64,000 nt of DNA from a virus. Below, piece by piece: positions 3,607-63,917 of the stretch. The notes below the pieces were generated by a model that was given only the letters and a program-made list of their open reading frames with translations, was not told the origin of the DNA and ran no database searches. The position numbers were made by a program, and so were the translations under genes. The DNA lies in the IMG/VR virus record IMGVR_UViG_3300025928_000005, positions 47,342-111,341 of that record. One strand, given 5' to 3'. The number at the start of each line of letters is the position of its first letter. Positions within the stretch are counted from its first letter, which is position 1.

Positions 3607-6555
3607 TTACTTGGTGAAGCCGGTCATCTTCTTGAGCTCCCGCCACGCAACTTCCCGCTGCATCGGGTCGGGGTTGTTCCGCCACTGCTCGTGCAGGGCC
3701 TGGAACACGGACTCCTGAGCGCGCTCCACGCGACTCACGGACGGCAGCACCTCCGGTGCGGCCGCGCTCTTGGTCAGCTGGTCGAAGGCGACGCCGCGGT
3801 AGGGACCCGCCGGGTCCGGCTGCGCGGCGAGCTCCTCGACCTGCTTGCGCATCTTCTTGATGGTCTTCTTGAGGTCGGTGACCTCGGTGAGGTGGGCGGC
3901 GGTCGCGTCGGCGACCGCCTTGTTGATGAGGCTCTGCACGACGTCCACGTCGAGCGTCGCCGCCTTCACGACCTCGGCCGAGGTCTCCTTGCCGTAGGTC
4001 GTCTCGAGCGTCTCGGTGACGGTCGGCGGCTCGACGGTCTTGGCCTTCTTGGCCTTCTTCGCGGCCTTGGCCGCGCCGGGGCCGTGCGGGGCTGGCATGC
4101 CGACGCCGGTGGGCACCGGGCGGGAGCCGGGCAGGCCGCCGTTGCCGTACGGGCTGCCGTCGGGCGCGGCCGGGCACAGGTCGGGGAAGGTCTGCGCGAT
4201 GTGGTCGTGCATGGCCAGCATGGCCTGCCGGGCGTTGTCGCGCATGGCGTTGGTGTAGTAGGTCCGGGTGGGGACGCCGGTGACGGACGGGGCGCTGACC
4301 GGCCGCATCGGCTCGCCGGAGCTGGACGGGGCCTCCGCCGCGTGGCCGCCGGTGAGGTAGCCGCGGCCGTACTGGCTCGCGCTGATGGACCCGAACGGGT
4401 CGGGCGCGGTGTTGGGACCCGCGTGGCCCGGGGAGGCCGCCTCGTGGCCGGCGGTGATGACCGGCCGGTTGTAGGAGCGGCCGTTGATCGAGCCGGGGGT
4501 CGGGAACGTGCCCGGGCCGGGGTTCGCGTCCCGGAACTCCTTGTAGAGGTCCGACCGCGCCTCGAGCAGGTAGCGCGGGTCGGTGCCCTTCAGGAGGGTC
4601 ACGTGCTGCCACAGCTCGTTGGCCTTGCGGGCCTGGTCGAGCGGGGCGGACGCGGCGAGCTCGAAGGCCTTGCGCTGCCAGTGGTTCGGGTCGAGGCTGG
4701 ACAGGTCGTAGCGCGGGTAGCTCTTCGCGACGTCGTCCGGGTGGAAGCACGGGCAGGTCAGGTCGTGGAGCGTGCCGTAGTCCACGGGCACGTTCAGCAT
4801 CTTGAGCCGCATCGCGGCGGACCCCTCGGGGTCATCCGGGAAGATGAGGTCGGCGGCCTTCACGGACGAGTCCGGGACGGTGGGAACCTTGGCGTCGCGC
4901 TCGAACGCCTCGATCACGGGGCCGTCGGGCTCGCGGTGCTCCGGCACCGGGTCGGCGTCCTCGGTCTCCTCGACGCCGTCGGTGGGCGTGGGCTTCTTGA
5001 CCACGTCGGCCTTGGCCGCGGCCTTGCGCGCCTTCCTCGCGGCCTTGGCCGCGGCCTCCTGGAGGTCGGCCTCGCTCACGCTGGAGCCCTGAACCTGAAC
5101 CTCGACGGTCTTGACCTTGGAATCCGCCTCCGGCAGGTAGCCGGGGTGGGCCTTGCCGCAGCTGGGGCAGTACTTCTCACCCTTGTCGAGCTGGTAGCCG
5201 CAGCCGAGGCACGTGAAGTCGTGGTTCTTCTTGATTGCGAGCGCGCCCTTGAGCTTGCCGCCGCACTCGGGGCAGAAGTTGTGCTCGGCGTGCAGGTTCG
5301 CCCCGCAGCCGGGGCACATGACCTTGTCCTTCTTCTCGACGGTGACGACCTTCTCGATGGTCGGCTCGGCGGCCTTCATGCCGTCGTCGCACTTGTCGTC
5401 CTCGTCGCCGTCCGCGTCGGCCTTGTCGGTCGCGCCGCTCGAGCCGCCGCCGGCCGTGCCGCCACCAGCGGCCCCACCGCCGGCGCTGCCGCCGCTCTCG
5501 CCGCTGCCGCCGCCGGTGGAGCCGGCCTTGACCTCGTCCGGCTCCTCGGTCTTCGCCTCGGCGTCGCTCTCGGTCTCGACGTCGACCGTCTTCTCCTCGG
5601 CGTCCTCAACCACCTCGACGTCGACGACCTTCTCGCTGTCGCCCATGCCCAGCTCCTTCTTCCAGCTCTCGGGGAGCCGGGCCACGAAGGCGGCACCCTT
5701 GCGCCGTGCGATGCGGATGATGCTGCTCTTCAGCCCCTCCGGGGACTTGTTGTCGGCCCCGGCCCGTCCGATCGACAGCGCGGCGTCGTGAACATCCTGT
5801 GGCGTGACGATGGGGAAGGAGCGATCGTTGCCGGCGAAGTCCTCGGCGGGGATCTTGTCGCGGTCGGTGCCGCCGCCGACGTTGGGGTCCACCTTGCGCT
5901 TGGCGACCCCCTCGTGGCCGGTGAGCGCCTTGGCCACGTCGGCCGGCGTGACCCGGTCGGCGGCGAGGGCGGCGCCGGCTGCCTTCACGATCTCTCCCGC
6001 GAGCGCGTCGTCGAGGATCAGCTGGCCCACGTCCTCGGGCTGACCCGAATCGCCGGCGGCCTTGACGAGCTGGAACTTCGAGTTGAAGTTGCTGCCGCGG
6101 TCGACCAGCGAGATCTCGCTGATCTTGGTGAGGCCGTCACGGCGACCGCGGATGATGCCGTTCATGGCCTTGCCGGTCGGGTCCGGCACGATGTCCGGGT
6201 GGGTGATGCCAACCGAGTAGCAGGTGAGGACGCCCTTGCGGACGAGCTCCTTCGCCACGGGCTCCACGACGAGGGACTTGACCCAGTGGCCGTCGGGCGT
6301 GGCCTCCACCTCGAGGCCCTTGCCGGCGGGATCGCGGCGGGCCTGGTGCTGCACCCGCAGGTTGCCGCCGGTGTCGAGCCACTCGTGGATGGCCTTGGCT
6401 GACCAGTCCTGGTCGACGATCTGGAGGTCGGAGTCGACGGTGCCGTCGGTGGCCTTGCCGTAGACGATGAGGTCGCCGTCGCTCGTCTCCTCGGTCTTCT
6501 CGATGGGGAACGAGAAGTAGGTCAGCTCGCCGTCGGGGGTGAGGGTCGCGGCCAC
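3607..6555 (-). CDS. prohead protease/scaffold with double zinc ribbon
   Basis: N-terminal HK97-like protease (VYGKATDGTVDSD, QH, YSVG, EISLVDR); four CxxCG knuckles; C-terminal coiled coil. Confidence 0.8.
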   Translation of the reverse strand: MAATLTPDGELTYFSFPIEKTEETSDGDLIVYGKATDGTVDSDLQIVDQDWSAKAIHEWLDTGGNLRVQHQARRDPAGKGLEVEATPDGHWVKSLVVEPVAKELVRKGVLTCYSVGITHPDIVPDPTGKAMNGIIRGRRDGLTKISEISLVDRGSNFNSKFQLVKAAGDSGQPEDVGQLILDDALAGEIVKAAGAALAADRVTPADVAKALTGHEGVAKRKVDPNVGGGTDRDKIPAEDFAGNDRSFPIVTPQDVHDAALSIGRAGADNKSPEGLKSSIIRIARRKGAAFVARLPESWKKELGMGDSEKVVDVEVVEDAEEKTVDVETESDAEAKTEEPDEVKAGSTGGGSGESGGSAGGGAAGGGTAGGGSSGATDKADADGDEDDKCDDGMKAAEPTIEKVVTVEKKDKVMCPGCGANLHAEHNFCPECGGKLKGALAIKKNHDFTCLGCGYQLDKGEKYCPSCGKAHPGYLPEADSKVKTVEVQVQGSSVSEADLQEAAAKAARKARKAAAKADVVKKPTPTDGVEETEDADPVPEHREPDGPVIEAFERDAKVPTVPDSSVKAADLIFPDDPEGSAAMRLKMLNVPVDYGTLHDLTCPCFHPDDVAKSYPRYDLSSLDPNHWQRKAFELAASAPLDQARKANELWQHVTLLKGTDPRYLLEARSDLYKEFRDANPGPGTFPTPGSINGRSYNRPVITAGHEAASPGHAGPNTAPDPFGSISASQYGRGYLTGGHAAEAPSSSGEPMRPVSAPSVTGVPTRTYYTNAMRDNARQAMLAMHDHIAQTFPDLCPAAPDGSPYGNGGLPGSRPVPTGVGMPAPHGPGAAKAAKKAKKAKTVEPPTVTETLETTYGKETSAEVVKAATLDVDVVQSLINKAVADATAAHLTEVTDLKKTIKKMRKQVEELAAQPDPAGPYRGVAFDQLTKSAAAPEVLPSVSRVERAQESVFQALHEQWRNNPDPMQREVAWRELKKMTGFTK

Positions 6556-16508: not shown

Positions 16509-16964
16509 TCAGAAGTTACCGTTCGATACCTGAAGGCAGGGGATCCCGACCACGTTTCGCCACAGGTCGACGACCTGGTTGCGGTCGTCGAAAGCGGCGA
16601 TGACGTTGAACCTGGGCTGGATCAGAACGTAGAAGAGGTGCCGCTTCAGGTCGACATCCCTAGCGTAGCGCCACTCGTCGGTGTCGGGTCGCAGGTAGAG
16701 GCTGTGCTTCACGACCTCACGGCTCAGCCGACCGTGCAGGTGGGCCGTGATGAAGTCGGTGGTCGCGTCGTGGCAGACGACGTTGCGGCCGGACGCGAAC
16801 ACGAGCTCGTCGCCGACGTCGAGCAGGGCCCGCGCGACGGCGAGCACGGGCTCGTTGGGGAGGTCCTCGTGGACCCGGTCCCAGTCGTAGGGCCCGCGGC
16901 CGCCCGGGGCCCGCAGGGCCAGGGTGCCGTCGACGTCGAACAGCCAGGCTCGCCTTCTCGCCAC
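16509..16964 (-). CDS. HAD phosphatase like the 3'-phosphatase domain of phage polynucleotide kinase (PseT)
   Basis: FDVDGTLA, ASGR, D..LK, FDDRNQVVDLWR..GIPCLQV..GNF; no kinase P-loop. Confidence 0.85.
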   Translation of the reverse strand: MARRRAWLFDVDGTLALRAPGGRGPYDWDRVHEDLPNEPVLAVARALLDVGDELVFASGRNVVCHDATTDFITAHLHGRLSREVVKHSLYLRPDTDEWRYARDVDLKRHLFYVLIQPRFNVIAAFDDRNQVVDLWRNVVGIPCLQVSNGNF

Positions 16965-17210
16965 GTGTCTGCTCCGTTTCCTAGATACGACGATGGGGCC
17001 GGGTTGACCCGGCCCCACCATCTCTCCGCGCTCACATCCAAGGTGATGAGATTACTGTACCACTGATGTATCGCCTCTACCAGCGACTCGCCCGGCGAAG
17101 CAGCCAGAGCCAGAAGCCGAGGCGGTGCCGTCGCCGGCGTCGTCGGCGCACCTCAGCCACGACCTGGCAGCGCGGGAAGCTGCAGCCACCGGCGCACCAA
17201 ACGGCGCACC

Positions 17211-18917
17211 TCAGCTCTCCCACGGCCAGCGCCCCGCCTGGCCGGCCTCGAGGGTCAACGGCAGCCCGAACATGGCGTCGGTCAGGCCGCCAAGCTCGTG
17301 ACGGTTGCTGCCCGGCGTGACCGGCATCATCGTGTTCTTGTAGCCGGCGAGGTTGAACGCGTAGATCGGCACGTTCCGCGGGGCAGCCGAGTCGACGTCA
17401 CCCACCCCGTAGTTTCCCATCGTCTGACAGTCGGTCAGGATGATGACGCGGCTGTGCTCAGGCCGCAGCGTCTCGCGGACCGCCCTCGCGATCTCGGTGC
17501 CGCCGCCGGCGCTCCCCTGGTATCGCTTGAACGTTTCCACCGCCTTGAGCAGGCTCGTGCCTGGCTCGACACCGGTGACGTGGAACTGCGTGTTCGCGAA
17601 GCCCCACGCGTCGACGCCGGCCGGGTTCCGGATCTTCAGGGCGAGCCCGAAGAGCGCGGCCGCGGTCGAGTAGTCCATCTTGGAGTTTTCGGACAGCTTG
17701 CCCCAGGTCATCGACGCGGAGGTGTCGATGAGCACGAGGGTCCGGCCCGGCAGTACGGGCACGTTCGCCAGGGAGTGGTTCACGGCCTGCTCCAGGGCGT
17801 GGCCCCACCGCAGGGACGGGGCCTCGAGGTAGGCGTTGAGGAACCGGAACGGCAGCTGACGGCTCTTCCGGATCTGCTCCGGGTCGGCGAGCCGCGTCAG
17901 GAGCGGTCCGATCACCGAGTCCGGGACGCCGGCCTGGTCGAGGCCGCGCAGGTTGCGCAGCAGGGCCATGTAGCCGAGCTTGGGCAGCGCGAGCTGCCAG
18001 ATCTCGGCGTCGGTGACGGCGCGGCCCTCGCTCGGCTTCTCGCCGAGCCACGACTTGAGCCACTCCCACTGGCCGACCATCGCCCCGTGGATCAGGTCGA
18101 GGGCGACCTGGTCGTCCGCGAGGGCGCGGCGCGCGAGGTCGTGCCGCTCGCTGGGGGTCAGGCGCGCCATCGCCCACCGGACCCGGACGTGGGTCAGGGA
18201 CTCGGGCGGCTCCGCCCCGTCGCGGCCGTGCCGGGCGGTGATCGCCCACCGGAACAGGTCGTCCTGCCAGGTGCGCTCCGCGCCGGGGGTGCGGACGTCG
18301 GCGTGGGTCAGCTCGAGGACGTCGCCGAACCGCAGGGCCTTGCCCTCACCGTCGTAGCGCAGGAACGCGGCCTCGTCGTAGAGGCGCGTGACGGCGTCGG
18401 CGACGCCGCGCTTGACCGGCTTCGGCAGCTTGACGACGATCGTGCCGTCGGGGCGGGTGACGCCGAACCGGTGCCGCCAGTAGGCGAGGAGCTCGCCCGG
18501 CTCATCGGGGCGCTGCAGCACCGACGTGACCAGCTCGCGGTTGCCGTCACCGTGCAGGCCGGCGGTGAGCCGGGCGTGCACGGCCTCCGCGGCGAGCAGG
18601 ATCGACGCGGTGCGGATGTTGCCCGGGCCGCGCAGCCACGAGAGGAAGACCCGCACCCACGGCCACGTCTCCTCGTTGACGGCGAGCTGGGCCACGAGCT
18701 CCCGCAGGCGCTGCACGTTCTCGTCCGCGGTGTCGTAGAAGCCCCTCTCACCAGCGAACCGCGAGACCGCCCGCCTGAAGAGCTCGGACTGCGCGTCGCT
18801 CTGGAAGCCGGGCGCGCCCTCGTGGGTGAGCCCGTCCGGGGTCGCGCTGAGCGTCCGCAGCGGGCCGCTCGCGGCCGCGCGCCGCGGTTGGGTCGATGCC
18901 TTGTTGAATCCTGCCAC
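17211..18917 (-). CDS. rsr: Ro60/Rsr TROVE-domain RNA-binding protein with vWA domain
   Basis: THEGAPG, LQRPDEPGELLAY, LPKPVKRGVADA, YMALLRNLR, SRQLPFRF, MIDAS DTSASM, GGGT, ILTD; GTG with GAGAGG RBS. Confidence 0.93.
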   Translation of the reverse strand: MAGFNKASTQPRRAAASGPLRTLSATPDGLTHEGAPGFQSDAQSELFRRAVSRFAGERGFYDTADENVQRLRELVAQLAVNEETWPWVRVFLSWLRGPGNIRTASILLAAEAVHARLTAGLHGDGNRELVTSVLQRPDEPGELLAYWRHRFGVTRPDGTIVVKLPKPVKRGVADAVTRLYDEAAFLRYDGEGKALRFGDVLELTHADVRTPGAERTWQDDLFRWAITARHGRDGAEPPESLTHVRVRWAMARLTPSERHDLARRALADDQVALDLIHGAMVGQWEWLKSWLGEKPSEGRAVTDAEIWQLALPKLGYMALLRNLRGLDQAGVPDSVIGPLLTRLADPEQIRKSRQLPFRFLNAYLEAPSLRWGHALEQAVNHSLANVPVLPGRTLVLIDTSASMTWGKLSENSKMDYSTAAALFGLALKIRNPAGVDAWGFANTQFHVTGVEPGTSLLKAVETFKRYQGSAGGGTEIARAVRETLRPEHSRVIILTDCQTMGNYGVGDVDSAAPRNVPIYAFNLAGYKNTMMPVTPGSNRHELGGLTDAMFGLPLTLEAGQAGRWPWES

Positions 18918-18946: not shown

Positions 18947-18986
18947 ACGAGGCCCCCACCAGCCGTTAAGCTGGTGGGGGCCTCGT
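18947..18986 (-). terminator. 17-bp perfect hairpin between RNA array and rsr
   Basis: ACGAGGCCCCCACCAGC / GCTGGTGGGGGCCTCGT. Confidence 0.6.
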
Positions 18987-19028
18987 GGTGGACGGTCTCA
19001 ACCGCCTGCCTTGTCGGTTGAGACCGAG

Positions 19029-19102
19029 TTGCGGGGACGGGATTTGAACCCGTGACCACTGGGTTATGAGCCCAGCGCGCTACCGAACTGCGCCACCCCG
19101 CT
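19029..19102 (-). tRNA. tRNA-Met(CAU), initiator-like
   Basis: cloverleaf; anticodon arm GGG-CUCAUAA-CCC (3 G-C pairs); 1:72 mismatch; no CCA. Confidence 0.93.
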
Positions 19103-19105
19103 GCA

Positions 19106-19206
19106 CGTGAGCTGGACCGGGACGAGACCTGAGGTGACGGGCGGCGTCTGTTTGCAACCAATTTGCGAAGTAGCCGCTCGTCCGCGCACCGTCCCGGCCG
19201 CTCACG
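19106..19206 (-). ncRNA. Y-RNA-like RNA A (minimal insert)
   Basis: terminal stem, GGUGCG, inner stem, CUACUUC, short hairpin, GGUCUC; scaffold shared with four others; next to Ro60. Confidence 0.7.
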
Positions 19207-19209
19207 AGA

Positions 19210-19290
19210 TCACCACGAGACCTGGGACGACCTGGGGCGACTCTTCAAATTAGCAGTTTGATATAGCCCCTGGTCTTTGCACCGTGGCGA
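19210..19290 (-). ncRNA. Y-RNA-like RNA B (anticodon-stem-loop-like insert)
   Basis: GGUGCA..CUAUAUC..GGUCUC scaffold; insert UCAAA-CUGCUAA-UUUGA. Confidence 0.7.
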
Positions 19291-19310
19291 AGCCTGTGTG
19301 TAGTTGTGGG

Positions 19311-19455
19311 TCGACGCGAGACCAGGTGGCTGGCGGCGTGATCCTCGAAATGCTGCCGATTACACCACGTCCCCGAGGGGACGGCGGGATTCGAACCCGC
19401 ACCTCAACCTAATCAGGGTTGTGTGAAGTAGTCGCTGGCCGTCGCACCGCGTCGA
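19311..19455 (-). ncRNA. yrlA: YrlA-type Y RNA C with permuted tRNA-like domain
   Basis: scaffold plus T arm GCGGG-UUCGAAU-CCCGC, loop-closed acceptor CGUCCCC-UC-GGGGACG, D-like arm. Confidence 0.82.
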
Positions 19456-19462
19456 TGAAGTT

Positions 19463-19548
19463 GTGGGAACCGACTGACCTGGGTTGCCCCGGCCCATAGG
19501 CTATGACCGCCGCGTCTGGTCTCACGCTCGGTTCTAGACGTGAGCCAC
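19463..19548 (-). ncRNA. putative structured RNA with pseudoknot
   Basis: CUCACG/CGUGAG hairpin whose loop GAACCGA complements downstream UCGGUUC; closing GUGG/CCAC. Confidence 0.4.
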
Positions 19549-19555
19549 GTTGCAT

Positions 19556-19686
19556 CACCTCGAGACCTGAGCGTCGGTCGGGGTAGCCGCTTGGCCGCTG
19601 CGGCGAACGACCGGGGTTGAGACCGGTCGATGGGATTCGAACCCATGATTCTTGTGGAAGTACCCGCTCGACTTCGCACCGAGGTG
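19556..19686 (-). ncRNA. yrlA: YrlA-type Y RNA D with permuted tRNA-like domain
   Basis: scaffold plus T arm AUGGG-UUCGAAU-CCCAU, loop-closed acceptor CGACCGG/CCGGUCG, D-like arm. Confidence 0.82.
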
Positions 19687-19693
19687 CCTTGCG

Positions 19694-19768
19694 TGGCTGC
19701 CGATGGACTTGAACCACCGACCCCCGCCTTATCAGGGCGGTGCTCTAACCTGTCTGAGCTAGACAGCC
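19694..19768 (-). tRNA. tRNA-Ile(GAU)
   Basis: GGCUGUC/GGCAGCC acceptor; CCGCC-CUGAUAA-GGCGG; T loop UUCAAGU. Confidence 0.93.
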
Positions 19769-19772
19769 GTAC

Positions 19773-19870
19773 GGTGAGATCCTACCACCGGGAGGGAGTC
19801 GAACCCGCTAGGTTGGTCGCGACACCAACCCGTCGTCCGGACGCGGAGTTGAACCGAGCCGGATCTCACC
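19773..19870 (-). ncRNA. unknown RNA with two T-loop hairpins
   Basis: 10-bp closing stem GGUGAGAUCC/GGAUCUCACC; CGG-UUCAACU-CCG and GGG-UUCGACU-CCC; central GGUUGGU/ACCAACC hairpin. Confidence 0.6.
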
Positions 19871-19894
19871 TGAGCGACCTCGCGTAGTCGCCTG

Positions 19895-19966
19895 CGCCGG
19901 AGACGGGGATCGAACCCGCGACCTCTCCCTCGACAGGGGAGCGCTCTTCCATTGAGCTACTCTGGC
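19895..19966 (-). tRNA. tRNA-Asp(GUC)
   Basis: CUCCC-CUGUCGA-GGGAG; G73; A4:C69 mismatch. Confidence 0.88.
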
Positions 19967-19968
19967 TT

Positions 19969-20043
19969 ACGTGGTCCTCTGGCCGCTGAGGTACACCCCC
20001 TCGAAGTGGAGGTGAGGGGACTCGAACCCCCGACTTCCCACCG
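19969..20043 (-). ncRNA. free-standing circularly permuted tRNA-like element without anticodon loop
   Basis: order T arm, acceptor 3' strand CACCUCC, 7-nt linker, GGGGGUG, UA, D arm CCUC/GAGG. Confidence 0.7.
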
Positions 20044-20117
20044 TGACTGCCGCTGGACTCGAACCAGCTACCTTCCGAGTTTCAACCGGACGCTCTCCCA
20101 GCTTGAGCTAGGCAGCC
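20044..20117 (-). tRNA. tRNA-Phe(GAA)
   Basis: GGCUGCC/GGCAGUC acceptor; UCCGG-UUGAAAC-UCGGA. Confidence 0.88.
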
Positions 20118-20238
20118 AAGCACACGGTGAACCATCGCCGATCCATCAGCATCGAACGCGATGTTCGATGCTTTTACCACGGACCAGGGACTCGAGTACT
20201 GCCCGTGGTGGGCTGACACCCGTGCGTGCCTTCCCTTG

Positions 20239-20310
20239 TACCCCACGCCGGGATCGAACCGGCGCCTTCCGCTTGAGGGGCGGAGGTGACTACCACTACA
20301 CCAGTGGGGC
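20239..20310 (-). tRNA. tRNA-Glu(CUC), atypical C33
   Basis: GCCCCAC/GUGGGGU acceptor; UCCGC-CCCUCAA-GCGGA; T loop UUCGAUC. Confidence 0.8.
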
Positions 20311-20312
20311 GT

Positions 20313-20473
20313 GAAACCTCACCGAGACCATTGAGCCTGCCCTCGGTTTTCTTTCTGACTCTTGCTCTGCCAAGTTGAGCTACCCCACGACCGAGGTCGA
20401 GGGGACGGGACTTGAACCCGCAACCCAGAGTTCCGCTTGAAGTATCCGAGTGCGTTCGCACCGGTGAGGCTTC
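20313..20473 (-). ncRNA. yrlA: YrlA-type Y RNA E with permuted tRNA-like domain
   Basis: scaffold plus ACUCU/AGAGU stem, T arm GCGGG-UUCAAGU-CCCGU, loop-closed acceptor, D arm UAGCUCAACUUGGCAGAGC. Confidence 0.85.
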
Positions 20474-20539: not shown

Positions 20540-20569
20540 ACCGTATCAGACAGCAACGAGCGTTGTCCA
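20540..20569 (-). promoter_or_regulatory. putative promoter of RNA array/rsr operon (TGGACA-N18-TACGGT)
   Basis: sigma-A-like hexamers upstream of first Y RNA. Confidence 0.45.
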
Positions 20570-62578: not shown

Positions 62579-63917
62579 CTACTTCTCCTCGAGCCGCAGC
62601 TGGTACGGGTACGACTTCCGGCACAGCTGGCAGGTCACCTTGGCCGGGTCGTCGGTCAGGTAGGCGGCCGACGCCTGCCGCCCGCGGGCCGCGATCTTCA
62701 GGTCGCTGCCGCACGCGGGGCCCGTGAAGGTGGTGCCGACCCCGGTCCGCAGGTGGACCTTGTGCGGGCGGCGCGGCTTCCCGGGCGTGAGGCCCCACCT
62801 CGGGTCGTTGAACCCTGAGGGGCTCACCGCGCACTCACCTCGCGGTGCAGGAGCCGCAGCGCCTCGTCGTACGTCGTCAGGCCGAAGCTCGCGGGGTCTG
62901 GGATGGGCCGCCCGTCGACGGTAAAGACGTCGAAGTGCGACTCACTGTCGAGGGTGCCGCGGTTCGAGCTCGCGAGCCGGCCCACGGGAACGCCGTCCCG
63001 AGACACCTCCCACCACCACGTGCCCCGCGTCCGCGCCTCGACCCGCTCGCAGCTCCAGCGATGCTCCTCGAACTCGCTCACCGCTCACCCGCCGCCCTCA
63101 GCCCGTCGATCACGCGCAGCATCCCGTCTGCCTGCCTGACCGTCAGGTCCGCCGCCGTGGCCAGGGCGCTCTTGGCGCCCCACTTGTCCGTCGCGGCGAG
63201 CTGCACCGCCAGGGCCTCGGTTCGAACCATGTGCGCCCGCAGGCGCAGCTGGTCCAGGGATTGGTCGCCGTGTCTTCCCACGTCGGTTCCTCGCTCTCGT
63301 TGTCGTCGTTCTCGGTGCCGGCGCTCACGATCGAGCGTCGGTGATCTCCTCGAGCTGGGTCGCGGCCTCGAGCTCTCGCACCGACCAGCGGCTCGGCTCG
63401 AGGTGCCCCGTGACCCGGGAGTGGTACGTGAACCCGTACGGCAGCGCGTACCACCGCCCCGACCAGTTGTGGCCGCGCTCCCTGAAGACGCGGGCCCCGG
63501 CGACCTGCTCGGCGTGGGGCCGGGCCGTCAGCTCGGCCCACAGCTCCTCGAGCCGCGCGAGGTCGCTCGCTCCCTTCAGCGTCAGGCTGTTGATGAAGCT
63601 GATCGCCCGTCGGAGCGAGTCGACGCTCATCCTCCGGACGTCGCCCGTGTACGTGCCCACCATCAGATGACCTCTACCAGGTTGTCGGGGCTGAGCAGGA
63701 CCCCGCGGCCCCGCACGACCTTCCACACCACGTCCACCGCTCGCCGCCGCACCTCGAGGGCGGTGCCCTCGTGCGGGGCCGGCCAGCGGTCGCTCTCGTG
63801 GCCTACGGTGAGCCGGCACCGCACCGTCTCGCCGCGGGTCGCGCGGCCCAGCAGGGAGCGCGTCGTGACGGCGATCTCCGCGGGACAGCGCTCGCGGCCG
63901 AGCCGCAGGCGGTTCAC
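62579..63917 (-). other. five small ORFs (62579-62827, 62824-63081, 63078-63281, 63325-63663, 63663-63917)
   Basis: overlapping start/stop codons. Confidence 0.55.

What the first reader, a model, noticed from the sequence alone, without database searches (positions are those of the whole stretch)
19106..20473. Five Y-RNA paralogs share one scaffold but carry different inserts
Seen: five elements (19106-19206, 19210-19290, 19311-19455, 19556-19686, 20313-20473) follow stem, GGUGC(G/A), inner stem, UA(C/U)(U/A)UC, insert, inner stem, GGUCUC, stem. The stems differ in sequence yet stay complementary, while the three short motifs are conserved. Inserts: a tiny hairpin (A), an anticodon-like stem-loop (B), and permuted tRNA domains (C, D, E); C also has a GAU anticodon-like hairpin. 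Inference: a constant Ro-binding handle with a variable adaptor, letting one Ro60 engage different partners.
Basis: partly seen in the sequence, partly recalled or inferred. Interest (0 to 1): 0.88.

Follow-up and report, generated by a model that had tools for sequence, protein, structure and literature searches.

The report
Five phage Y RNAs beside Ro60
A soil actinophage carries five small structured RNA genes of the known Y RNA (YrlA/YrlB) kind just upstream of its Ro60 gene; they share one conserved stem-loop "handle" and carry different inner modules, so this is a well-supported but expected extension of a known system.

Summary
On the minus strand, five elements (19106-19206, 19210-19290, 19311-19455, 19556-19686, 20313-20473) share one layout: outer stem, GGUGCR, 4+5 bp inner stem, UAYWUC, variable insert, inner stem, GGUCUC, outer stem. 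GGTGCR-N5-20-TAYWTC occurs only five times in the 111-kb phage genome, all here. Four related IMG/VR phages keep all five types. Both stems are supported by compensatory changes.

The elements sit among five tRNAs, immediately upstream of the only TROVE/Ro60 gene. E is a YrlA homologue, below Rfam's threshold. D is a second YrlA-like RNA with a 7-bp acceptor-like stem. C is a whole permuted cloverleaf. A and B are short hairpin types.

Two of the three motifs correspond to features already described for YrlA RNAs: the CGAA-type 5' motif and YUAY. Published Ro-encoding actinophages (Alone3, BRock, VanLee, Satis, Atuin) carry unannotated arrays of 3-7 such paralogs. In each phage the paralogs share a 3' motif that is specific to that lineage.

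It fits the data, but neither Ro binding nor partner choice is tested here.

Verdict: new members of a known kind, moderate interest. The same stretch was also noted by other first readers of this scan, unchecked.

The parts
20313..20473 (-). Y RNA E: handle plus YrlA-type tRNA-like domain (anticodon-stem analogue opening into the handle, T arm, long acceptor-like hairpin, D arm GGUAGCUCA..GGCAGAGC)
   Evidence: Rfam RF02553 YrlA 37.8 bits, E 3e-6 in the local search, below the gathering score of 69. 11-bp outer stem. T, acceptor and D helices conserved in 9 phage homologues.
19556..19686 (-). Y RNA D: handle plus T arm, 7-bp acceptor-like stem with 8-nt loop, D-like arm
   Evidence: R1 gives 44 bits, E 1.9e-8. 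Orthologues in L002, L003, L004 and L006.
19311..19455 (-). Y RNA C: handle plus a complete permuted cloverleaf (anticodon-like arm with loop CUGAUUA, 4-nt variable loop, T arm, closed acceptor hairpin, D arm)
   Evidence: Rfam tRNA 23.7 bits and YrlA 21.9 bits, both below threshold. Six-helix consensus over 7 phages: 90.1% of cells paired, 21 of 35 pairs with compensatory changes, slid controls 34-49%.
19210..19290 (-). Y RNA B: handle (GGUGCA, UAUAUC variants) plus a 5-bp hairpin with 7-nt anticodon-like loop CUGCUAA
   Evidence: Fold z -3.5. R1 gives 83.3 bits. Covariation in A1.
19106..19206 (-). Y RNA A: longest outer stem (about 15 bp), handle, small hairpin GCAA-AUUGG-UUGC
   Evidence: Fold z -4.2. 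R1 gives 90 bits. Covariation in A1.
17214..18917 (-). Ro60/Rsr orthologue (TROVE + vWA); probable start GTG 18917 after the RBS-like GAGAGGAA
   Evidence: Pfam TROVE 4.5e-13. PHROG 850 RNA-binding protein 4.4e-32. PDB 9KOP/9L5Y (phage phiLo Ro60) 3.9e-17 and 2NVO (D. radiodurans Rsr) 1.1e-7. The only TROVE match in the genome. Homologues align from residue 1 of the 18917 start.
19028..19102 (-). tRNA-Met(CAU); begins 4 nt after the 3' end of Y RNA A
19693..19768 (-). tRNA-Ile(GAU); ends about 6 nt before Y RNA D
19894..19966 (-). tRNA-Asp(GUC)
20043..20117 (-). tRNA-Phe(GAA)
20238..20310 (-). tRNA-Glu(CUC); begins 2 nt after the 3' end of Y RNA E
20540..20569 (-). Candidate promoter of the ncRNA array: TGGACA-N18-TACGGT
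   Evidence: Read from the sequence. Both hexamers are identical in L003 and L006 while the spacer varies. Not found by the sigma-70 consensus scan. Inference only.
18948..18985 (-). 16-bp GC-rich hairpin followed by UUCUCGUU, between tRNA-Met and the Ro60 start: terminator-like
   Evidence: Read. Part of the sodF_sRNA-like match, which reflects hairpin shape only. Not flagged.

Best explanation
The five elements are Y RNA genes of the bacterial/phage YrlA-YrlB kind, belonging to the phage's own Ro60 (Rsr) protein.

Transcription and processing (inferred). They are probably transcribed as one ncRNA precursor together with five tRNAs, from a promoter near 20540-20569 on the minus strand. Processing of the flanking tRNAs (RNase P, 3' trimming) would then release them, because their ends lie 2-6 nt from tRNA ends.

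The handle. Each RNA closes its 5' and 3' ends into a stem that flanks a conserved asymmetric internal loop: 5' GGUGCGA(A), 3' NCUCA-GGUCUC. A 4+5-bp inner stem and UACUUC follow. This handle is the likely Ro60 docking site.

The inner modules. They differ between paralogs: small hairpins in A and B, YrlA-type tRNA mimics in E and D, and a complete permuted cloverleaf in C. On the established model they would give Ro60 RNPs different properties or partners, for example host PNPase or tRNA-recognising enzymes.

Shown versus inferred. Shown here: sequence layout, conserved structure, orthology across phages, and linkage to Ro60. Inferred: transcription, processing, Ro binding and partner choice.
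For: Linkage: the array ends about 110 nt upstream of the likely start of the only TROVE gene, on the same strand.

Homology: E matches Rfam YrlA over the full model at 37.8 bits. E-type RNAs from 9 phage loci share T arm, acceptor hairpin and D arm.

Motifs: GUGCGAAG resembles the GNCGAAN0-1G/CGAA and metazoan GGUCCGA Ro-contact motifs. (C/G/A)UAC matches the YUAY motif (PMC4201824 sections read; PMC12135203).

Structure: in the A/B alignment 96.3% of cells pair and 10 of 18 pairs show double changes, against 23-47% paired in slid controls. Over 18 handles the outer stem pairs in 122 of 126 cells. For the C type, 21 of 35 pairs are compensatory.

Conservation: all five types are present in L003, L004 and L006; four are present in the truncated L002.

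Generality: 3-7 handle-bearing paralogs lie within about 1 kb of Ro in Alone3, BRock, VanLee, Satis and Atuin. Within each phage the paralogs share a 3' motif specific to that lineage. That is what co-evolution with one shared binding protein would produce.

Precedent: Thermus phage phiLo Ro60 binds two phage-encoded Y-like RNAs and host PNPase (PMC12135203). D. radiodurans Yrn2, tRNA-Asp and Yrn1 are co-transcribed (PMC4201824).
Against: There are no expression, processing or binding data.

No element reaches Rfam's YrlA gathering score. A, B and D give no Rfam YrlA match at all.

The strict GNCGAAN0-1G pattern is not matched. The motif here carries an extra base, and CGAA itself is present only in D and E.

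GGUCUC is clade-specific.

A terminator-like hairpin separates the array from Ro60, so co-expression is not assured.
Confidence: 0.78

Rival explanations
1. The shared handle is not a Ro60 site. It is a processing or stability element of a polycistronic tRNA precursor, for example a site for a host double-strand or single-strand endonuclease or for another phage protein. The elements would then be spacers that organise tRNA maturation.
For: The elements abut tRNAs within 2-6 nt. Handle-less structured RNAs (F, G, X1) share the array. No binding data exist.
Against: In five independent phage lineages the handle-bearing elements cluster at Ro60 rather than throughout the much larger tRNA arrays. 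Homology to YrlA, an RNA shown to bind Rsr in Salmonella and M. smegmatis (PMC4201824).
Confidence: 0.1
2. The elements act in cis as a leader of the Ro60 mRNA. Ro60 would bind its own upstream handles to autoregulate read-through of the terminator-like hairpin or translation, and the elements would not be released as trans-acting RNAs.
For: Same strand, immediately upstream of Ro60, with a terminator-like hairpin in between.
Against: Five copies interleaved with tRNAs, which are certainly processed out. In M. smegmatis YrlA and YrlB are encoded upstream of rsr and are processed from a single precursor into stable RNAs (PMC4201824). In Atuin the elements lie on both sides of Ro.
Confidence: 0.07
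3. The elements are decaying tRNA duplicates or pseudogenes with no function of their own, and the shared motifs are remnants of recent tandem duplication.
For: The T-arm and D-arm sequences are tRNA-like, and the region is a tRNA cluster.
Against: The paralogs differ almost everywhere except the three motifs, yet their stems stay complementary. Each type has orthologues at 66-92% Ro identity, and types A, C and E recur in phages with only 35-39% Ro identity, with compensatory changes.
Confidence: 0.03

Closest known systems
YrlA (Rfam RF02553), bacterial and phage Y RNA-like tRNA mimics (Chen et al. 2014, PMC4201824)
   Same: Encoded next to Ro60 on the same strand. The 5' and 3' ends pair. 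A CGAA-type motif lies in the 5' strand. A YUAY motif lies ahead of the tRNA-like domain. T arm, acceptor-like hairpin and D arm occur in the same permuted order (E, D). The 7-bp acceptor-like stem of D resembles that of M. smegmatis YrlA, which RNase P cleaves.
   Different: Scores are below the Rfam threshold. The 5' motif is GGUGCGAA rather than GNCGAAN0-1G. There is a clade-specific conserved 3' motif, GGUCUC. Five handle-sharing paralogs occur rather than one YrlA plus one YrlB. C keeps an intact anticodon-like arm, so its handle enters between the D arm and the anticodon arm instead of replacing the anticodon loop.
YrlB / Yrn2-type short Y RNAs (S. Typhimurium, M. smegmatis, D. radiodurans)
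   Same: A and B are long hairpins with the Ro-type handle and a small apical module, encoded beside a YrlA-type RNA and Ro60.
   Different: There is no detectable sequence homology beyond the handle. The apical loop of B is anticodon-like (C-U-NNN-A-A) rather than pyrimidine-rich.
Thermus phage phiLo Ro60 with Yrl1 and Yrl2 (PMC12135203; PDB 9KOP, 9L5Y)
   Same: A phage-encoded Ro60, the best PDB match to this protein (3.9e-17). It has several Y-like RNAs upstream, of stem / internal-loop / stem design with a CGAA motif. Binding to Ro60 and host PNPase was shown experimentally there.
   Different: Two RNAs there, five here. As far as I read the paper, no tRNA-like modules are reported for phiLo. 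The host lineage is different.
Metazoan Y RNAs (hY1, hY3, hY4, hY5)
   Same: A small paralog family that shares a Ro-binding stem (GGUCCGA here reads GGUGCGA) and differs in its internal loops. The modular model comes from this family.
   Different: The metazoan RNAs have no tRNA-like modules, are Pol III transcripts, and their 3' strand forms a bulged helix that is not seen here.

Membership tests
Y RNA (functional definition: ncRNA bound by Ro60) | Physically bound by the cognate Ro60 protein | not testable with these tools
   Needs RIP or EMSA. Only genomic linkage is shown here.
YrlA family (Chen et al. 2014 / Rfam RF02553) | Encoded within about 4 kb of a Ro60 orthologue, on the same strand | tested here: met
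   All five lie 0.2-1.6 kb upstream of the TROVE gene on the minus strand.
YrlA family (Chen et al. 2014 / Rfam RF02553) | Score at or above the Rfam gathering threshold (69 bits) | tested here: not met
   E 37.8 bits, C 21.9 bits, none for A, B or D. The YrlA-type RNAs of published Ro actinophages are also below threshold at 32-47 bits, so the model under-covers this lineage.
YrlA family (Chen et al. 2014 / Rfam RF02553) | GNCGAAN0-1G motif near the 5' end | tested here: inconclusive
   The strict pattern is absent. D has GUGCGAAG and E has GUGCGAAC, which contain CGAA with one extra base. C has GCGAC, A has GCGCG and B has GCAAA. The orthologues of B, C, D and E in L003 have GCGAA.
YrlA family (Chen et al. 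2014 / Rfam RF02553) | Conserved YUAY ahead of the tRNA-like domain | tested here: met
   CUAC in A and C; CUAU in B. GUAC (D) and AUAC (E) keep UAC after a purine. UACUUC is conserved in all five phage lineages examined.
YrlA family (Chen et al. 2014 / Rfam RF02553) | tRNA-like domain: T arm, acceptor-like hairpin, D arm | tested here: met
   Met for E, D and C. Not met for A and B, which are therefore YrlB-like rather than YrlA.
Ro60/Rsr protein family (for the neighbouring gene) | TROVE HEAT-repeat ring plus a C-terminal vWA domain | tested here: met
   Pfam TROVE 4.5e-13; vWA_CoxE weak at 0.0029. PDB 9KOP, 9L5Y and 2NVO align over residues 315-576. No structure was predicted.

The most novel reading that the evidence does not exclude
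Ro-encoding actinophages carry a standard kit of 3-7 Y RNAs. The handles evolve in concert with each phage's own Ro60, as the lineage-specific 3' motifs suggest. The modules are graded tRNA mimics, including a complete permuted cloverleaf (type C) and an anticodon-arm mimic (type B). The C-U-NNN-A-A loop triplet of these two types differs between close relatives: GCU, CCA, CUU and GUU in B; GAU, CGU and CGC in C. On this reading the kit aims Ro60, with a recruited host nuclease or the adjacent end-healing phosphatase, at specific tRNA-handling host factors. Candidates are anticodon nucleases, modification enzymes or synthetases. The kit would then be a programmable decoy or tether in the phage-host conflict over tRNAs.
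Probability: 0.12. Interest if true: 0.72.

Novelty: new member of a known kind. Interest (0 to 1): 0.4.

Why it matters
Y RNAs are still poorly understood, and bacterial and phage systems are where their mechanism has been worked out. This locus and its relatives give a compact natural series: one Ro60, and five RNAs with the same docking handle and graded tRNA-like modules. Orthologues across phages show which parts are constrained.

The handle's 3' motif changes with the phage lineage but is shared by all paralogs within a phage. That makes the RNA-protein recognition code testable by swapping motifs between cognate Ro60/Y RNA sets.

In practical terms, several published actinophage genomes have these RNAs unannotated. 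At least one (Alone3) has a likely false tRNA-Ser call inside such an element.

The general concept is not new: several Y RNAs per Ro60, tRNA mimicry, and phage-encoded Ro and Y RNAs have all been published.

Tried and rejected
1. A megablast of the array against INPHARED phages found only a 57-nt tRNA-Ile match. No close published relative is known.

The listed loci mostly hold single matches; only the known relatives had more than one match, and I did not check the others. This was uninformative.

3. A stricter 23-base pattern was scanned over metagenome contigs and genome contigs. Only L134 and L135 were real, and they belong to the same lineage as L003/L004. The Terrabacter, Ornithinimicrobium, Aeromicrobium and other hits do not fit model R1 at all or only weakly, and read as coding sequence for a membrane protein. 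They are chance matches in GC-rich DNA. I found no bacterial host copy of this exact handle.

4. The covariance model R1, built from types A and B, recovers A, B and D strongly. It is weak on C and E and nearly blind to other phage lineages at 16-18 bits. The distant homologues were found through the UACUUC anchor plus a closing-stem search instead.

5. RNA-repair context: the genome has no RtcB, no RNA ligase (PF09414) and no AAA_33 kinase. The PNKP-type phosphatase next to Ro60 is present in only three of the six related loci. A full heal-and-seal repair module is therefore not supported.

6. The sigma-70 consensus scan found no promoter. The proposed promoter rests only on conserved hexamers.

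7. The miRNA, HCV CRE, sodF sRNA and plastid UTR matches reflect hairpin or tRNA-antisense shape and were ignored.

8. The reviews PMC10870794 and PMC6047535, and the supplements of Chen et al. 2014, were not available. I could not check how many Y RNAs per phage had been listed before.

Full report
**What is there**

The window is part of an IMG/VR virus record of 111,341 b that CheckV rates complete. It has a terminase, a lysin and other phage genes. All features discussed lie on the minus strand.

Reading 20473 down to 19028, the order is:
- Y RNA E
- tRNA-Glu
- a 120-nt structured spacer, X1
- tRNA-Phe
- a 76-nt permuted tRNA-like element without a handle, F
- tRNA-Asp
- a 125-nt element with two T-arm-like hairpins, G
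- tRNA-Ile
- Y RNA D
- a 100-nt spacer, X2
- Y RNA C
- Y RNA B
- Y RNA A
- tRNA-Met

Two hairpins follow. The second is a 16-bp GC-rich stem with a U-rich tail. Next comes a 568-aa TROVE/vWA protein and then a PNKP-type HAD phosphatase.

The TROVE protein is the only one in the genome. Its best solved relatives are the Ro60 of Thermus phage phiLo (3.9e-17) and D. radiodurans Rsr (1.1e-7). It is 35-39% identical to proteins annotated "Ro-like RNA binding protein" in Streptomyces, Gordonia and Arthrobacter phages.

**Checking the observation**

GGTGCR-N5-20-TAYWTC occurs five times in the whole genome on both strands, all here. From the single-motif counts I reckon about one is expected by chance. 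Adding GGTCTC brings the expectation well below one.

The outer stems have 6-11 contiguous pairs and are different in each paralog. RNAfold gives z-scores of -4.2, -3.5 and -3.1 for A, B and D. The branched elements C and E are not distinguished by energy alone.

**Relatives and covariation**

Five IMG/VR loci encode Ro60 proteins 66-92% identical to this one. L003, L004 and L006 carry all five types in the same order just upstream of Ro60. L002 is cut inside D. L005 has no upstream sequence.

On an alignment of the A and B types from four phages, the proposed outer and inner stems pair in 96.3% of cells. Ten of 18 pairs show changes on both sides. The same measure falls to 23-47% when the partners are slid.

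Anchoring all 23 elements on the motifs gives 18 distinct handles. Their outer stem pairs in 122 of 126 cells, with up to five pair types per column. The inner stems pair in 140 of 162 cells.

**What they are**

- **E** matches Rfam YrlA over the whole model at 37.8 bits (E 3e-6 locally), below the gathering score of 69. Aligned with eight counterparts from other phage loci, it shares an invariant D arm, a T arm, and an acceptor-like hairpin with compensatory changes.
- **D** has a T arm, a 7-bp acceptor-like stem and a D-like arm. This resembles M. smegmatis YrlA, which RNase P cleaves because of such a stem (PMC4201824).
- **C** is a complete permuted cloverleaf: a 5-bp/7-nt anticodon-like arm, a 4-nt variable loop, a T arm, a closed acceptor hairpin and a D arm. 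Its six helices hold across seven phages, including Alone3, Atuin and Satis. There 90.1% of cells pair and 21 of 35 pairs are compensatory, against 34-49% paired in slid controls.
- **A and B** are short hairpin types, comparable to YrlB and Yrn2.

Chen et al. 2014 describe two conserved YrlA features: a 5' motif GNCGAAN0-1G thought to contact Ro60, and a YUAY motif ahead of the tRNA-like domain. The phiLo study uses the CGAA motif inside a stem / internal-loop / stem. The present GGUGCGA(A) and (C/G/A)UACUUC correspond to these, with small differences. GGUGCGAAG is also one base away from the metazoan GGUCCGAAG. That last comparison is from my own knowledge of hY RNA sequences.

**How general it is**

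Using UACUUC as an anchor and searching for a closing stem, I found handle-bearing paralogs next to Ro60 in five published genomes: five in Alone3, three or four in BRock, three or four in VanLee, three in Satis and six or seven in Atuin. None is annotated. Rfam gives sub-threshold YrlA matches at several of them.

Types A, C and E recur across these lineages. Within each phage all paralogs share a 3' motif that differs between lineages:
- GGUCUC in this clade
- UUUUUCUA in Alone3 and BRock
- UUGGUUAA in Satis
- UUUUUC in Atuin
- CCUGGAUCC or CCUUGACCC in VanLee

Orthologous modules combined with handles that are uniform within a phage are what is expected if the handle co-evolves with one shared partner. 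The linked Ro60 is the obvious candidate. This is indirect but independent support for the Ro-binding reading.

**Mechanism**

The best-supported account runs as follows. The array is transcribed as a precursor. A candidate promoter, TGGACA-N18-TACGGT at 20569-20540, has both hexamers conserved in L003 and L006 while the spacer varies; this is inference only. The tRNAs are excised, which leaves Y RNAs whose ends lie 2-6 nt from tRNA ends. Ro60 binds the shared handle, and the modules determine stability or partners.

Published precedents (PMC4201824, PMC12135203):
- D. radiodurans Yrn2, tRNA-Asp and Yrn1 are co-transcribed.
- Y RNA tethers Rsr to PNPase.
- phiLo Ro60, its Yrl RNAs and host PNPase form a ternary complex.
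- Chen et al. already suggested that extra Y RNAs widen the range of Ro60 RNPs.

It is plausible but untested here.

**What is and is not new**

Known already: phage-encoded Ro60, YrlA-type RNAs in 22 phages, at least two Y RNAs per species, and tRNA mimicry.

Apparently undescribed in the papers I could reach:
- arrays of three to seven paralogs in actinophages
- the lineage-specific 3' motif
- the type-C topology, with an intact anticodon-like arm

I could not open the two Wolin-lab reviews or the supplementary tables of Chen et al., so part of this may already be listed there.

I file the finding as new members of a known kind.

**Limits**

There are no expression or binding data. The exact handle is confined to one small clade: metagenome and genome scans found only the L003/L004 lineage again, and the other hits were coding sequence. 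No complete RNA-repair module is present. The variation of the anticodon-like loop triplets between relatives rests on four sequences per type.

Noticed in passing
window 19967-20042 (-); L006 3942-4017: Element F is a 76-nt permuted tRNA-like RNA with no Ro handle, lying exactly between tRNA-Phe and tRNA-Asp. It has a T arm, a 7-bp acceptor-like stem closed by a 7-nt loop, U-A, a D arm, and a 4-5-bp closing stem that covaries (GUGG/CCAC here, GCGG/CCGC in L006). The acceptor mimic reads G1-C72, G2-C71, G3.U70 with an A after the 3' strand, which is the tRNA-Ala/tmRNA-type pattern. Rfam gives about 26-bit matches to permuted and cyanobacterial tmRNA and 25.5 bits to YrlA.
   Followed up: partly
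window 19769-19893 (-); L003 3862-4006; L006 4091-4238: Element G: a small 5' hairpin followed by a long closing stem that encloses two T-arm-like hairpins (GGUUCAACUCC and GGGUUCGACUCCC) and a conserved CCYGGUGGUA. It is conserved in two relatives, with 9 of 32 predicted pairs showing compensatory changes. It has no Rfam match and no handle.
   Followed up: partly
window 20118-20237 (-): Spacer X1 between tRNA-Glu and tRNA-Phe folds strongly (-51.8 kcal/mol). It shares a GUACUCGAGUYCCUG core with the corresponding spacers of L003 and L006. Function unknown.
   Followed up: no
L124 (Streptomyces phage Alone3, OR725492.1) 4767-4916: The annotated tRNA-Ser(gct) (locus 4774-4847) lies inside a type-C Y RNA-like element: handle GAUGCGUAG...UACUUC, anticodon-like loop CUGCUAA, T arm, closed acceptor hairpin, D arm. 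It gets no Rfam tRNA match at E <= 0.01. It is probably a Y RNA miscalled as a tRNA.
   Followed up: partly
window 16512-17021 (-): A stand-alone PNKP-type HAD phosphatase domain (Pfam PF25109, 2.2e-36) lies directly downstream of Ro60. It is present in W, L002 and L006 but not in L003, L004 or L005. Atuin has a 'phosphatase' just upstream of its array. The genome has no kinase, RtcB or RNA ligase.
   Followed up: partly
window 19291-19310 and 19456-19470 (-): The 20-nt spacer CCCACAACUACACACAGGCU between C and B is identical in L006. A similar CCACAACUUCA precedes C in both phages. These may be processing sites or 3' tails.
   Followed up: no
L125 6079-6242 and L124 6967-7199: Near-threshold matches to the Rfam manA RNA motif (49.7 and 47.8 bits against a gathering score of 55.2) lie between the two tRNA-Lys genes downstream of Ro60 in BRock and Alone3.
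   Followed up: no
window 62891-62983 (+): ARAGORN calls a 93-nt tRNA-Phe(aaa) that Rfam does not support at its gathering threshold. It is probably a false positive.
   Followed up: no
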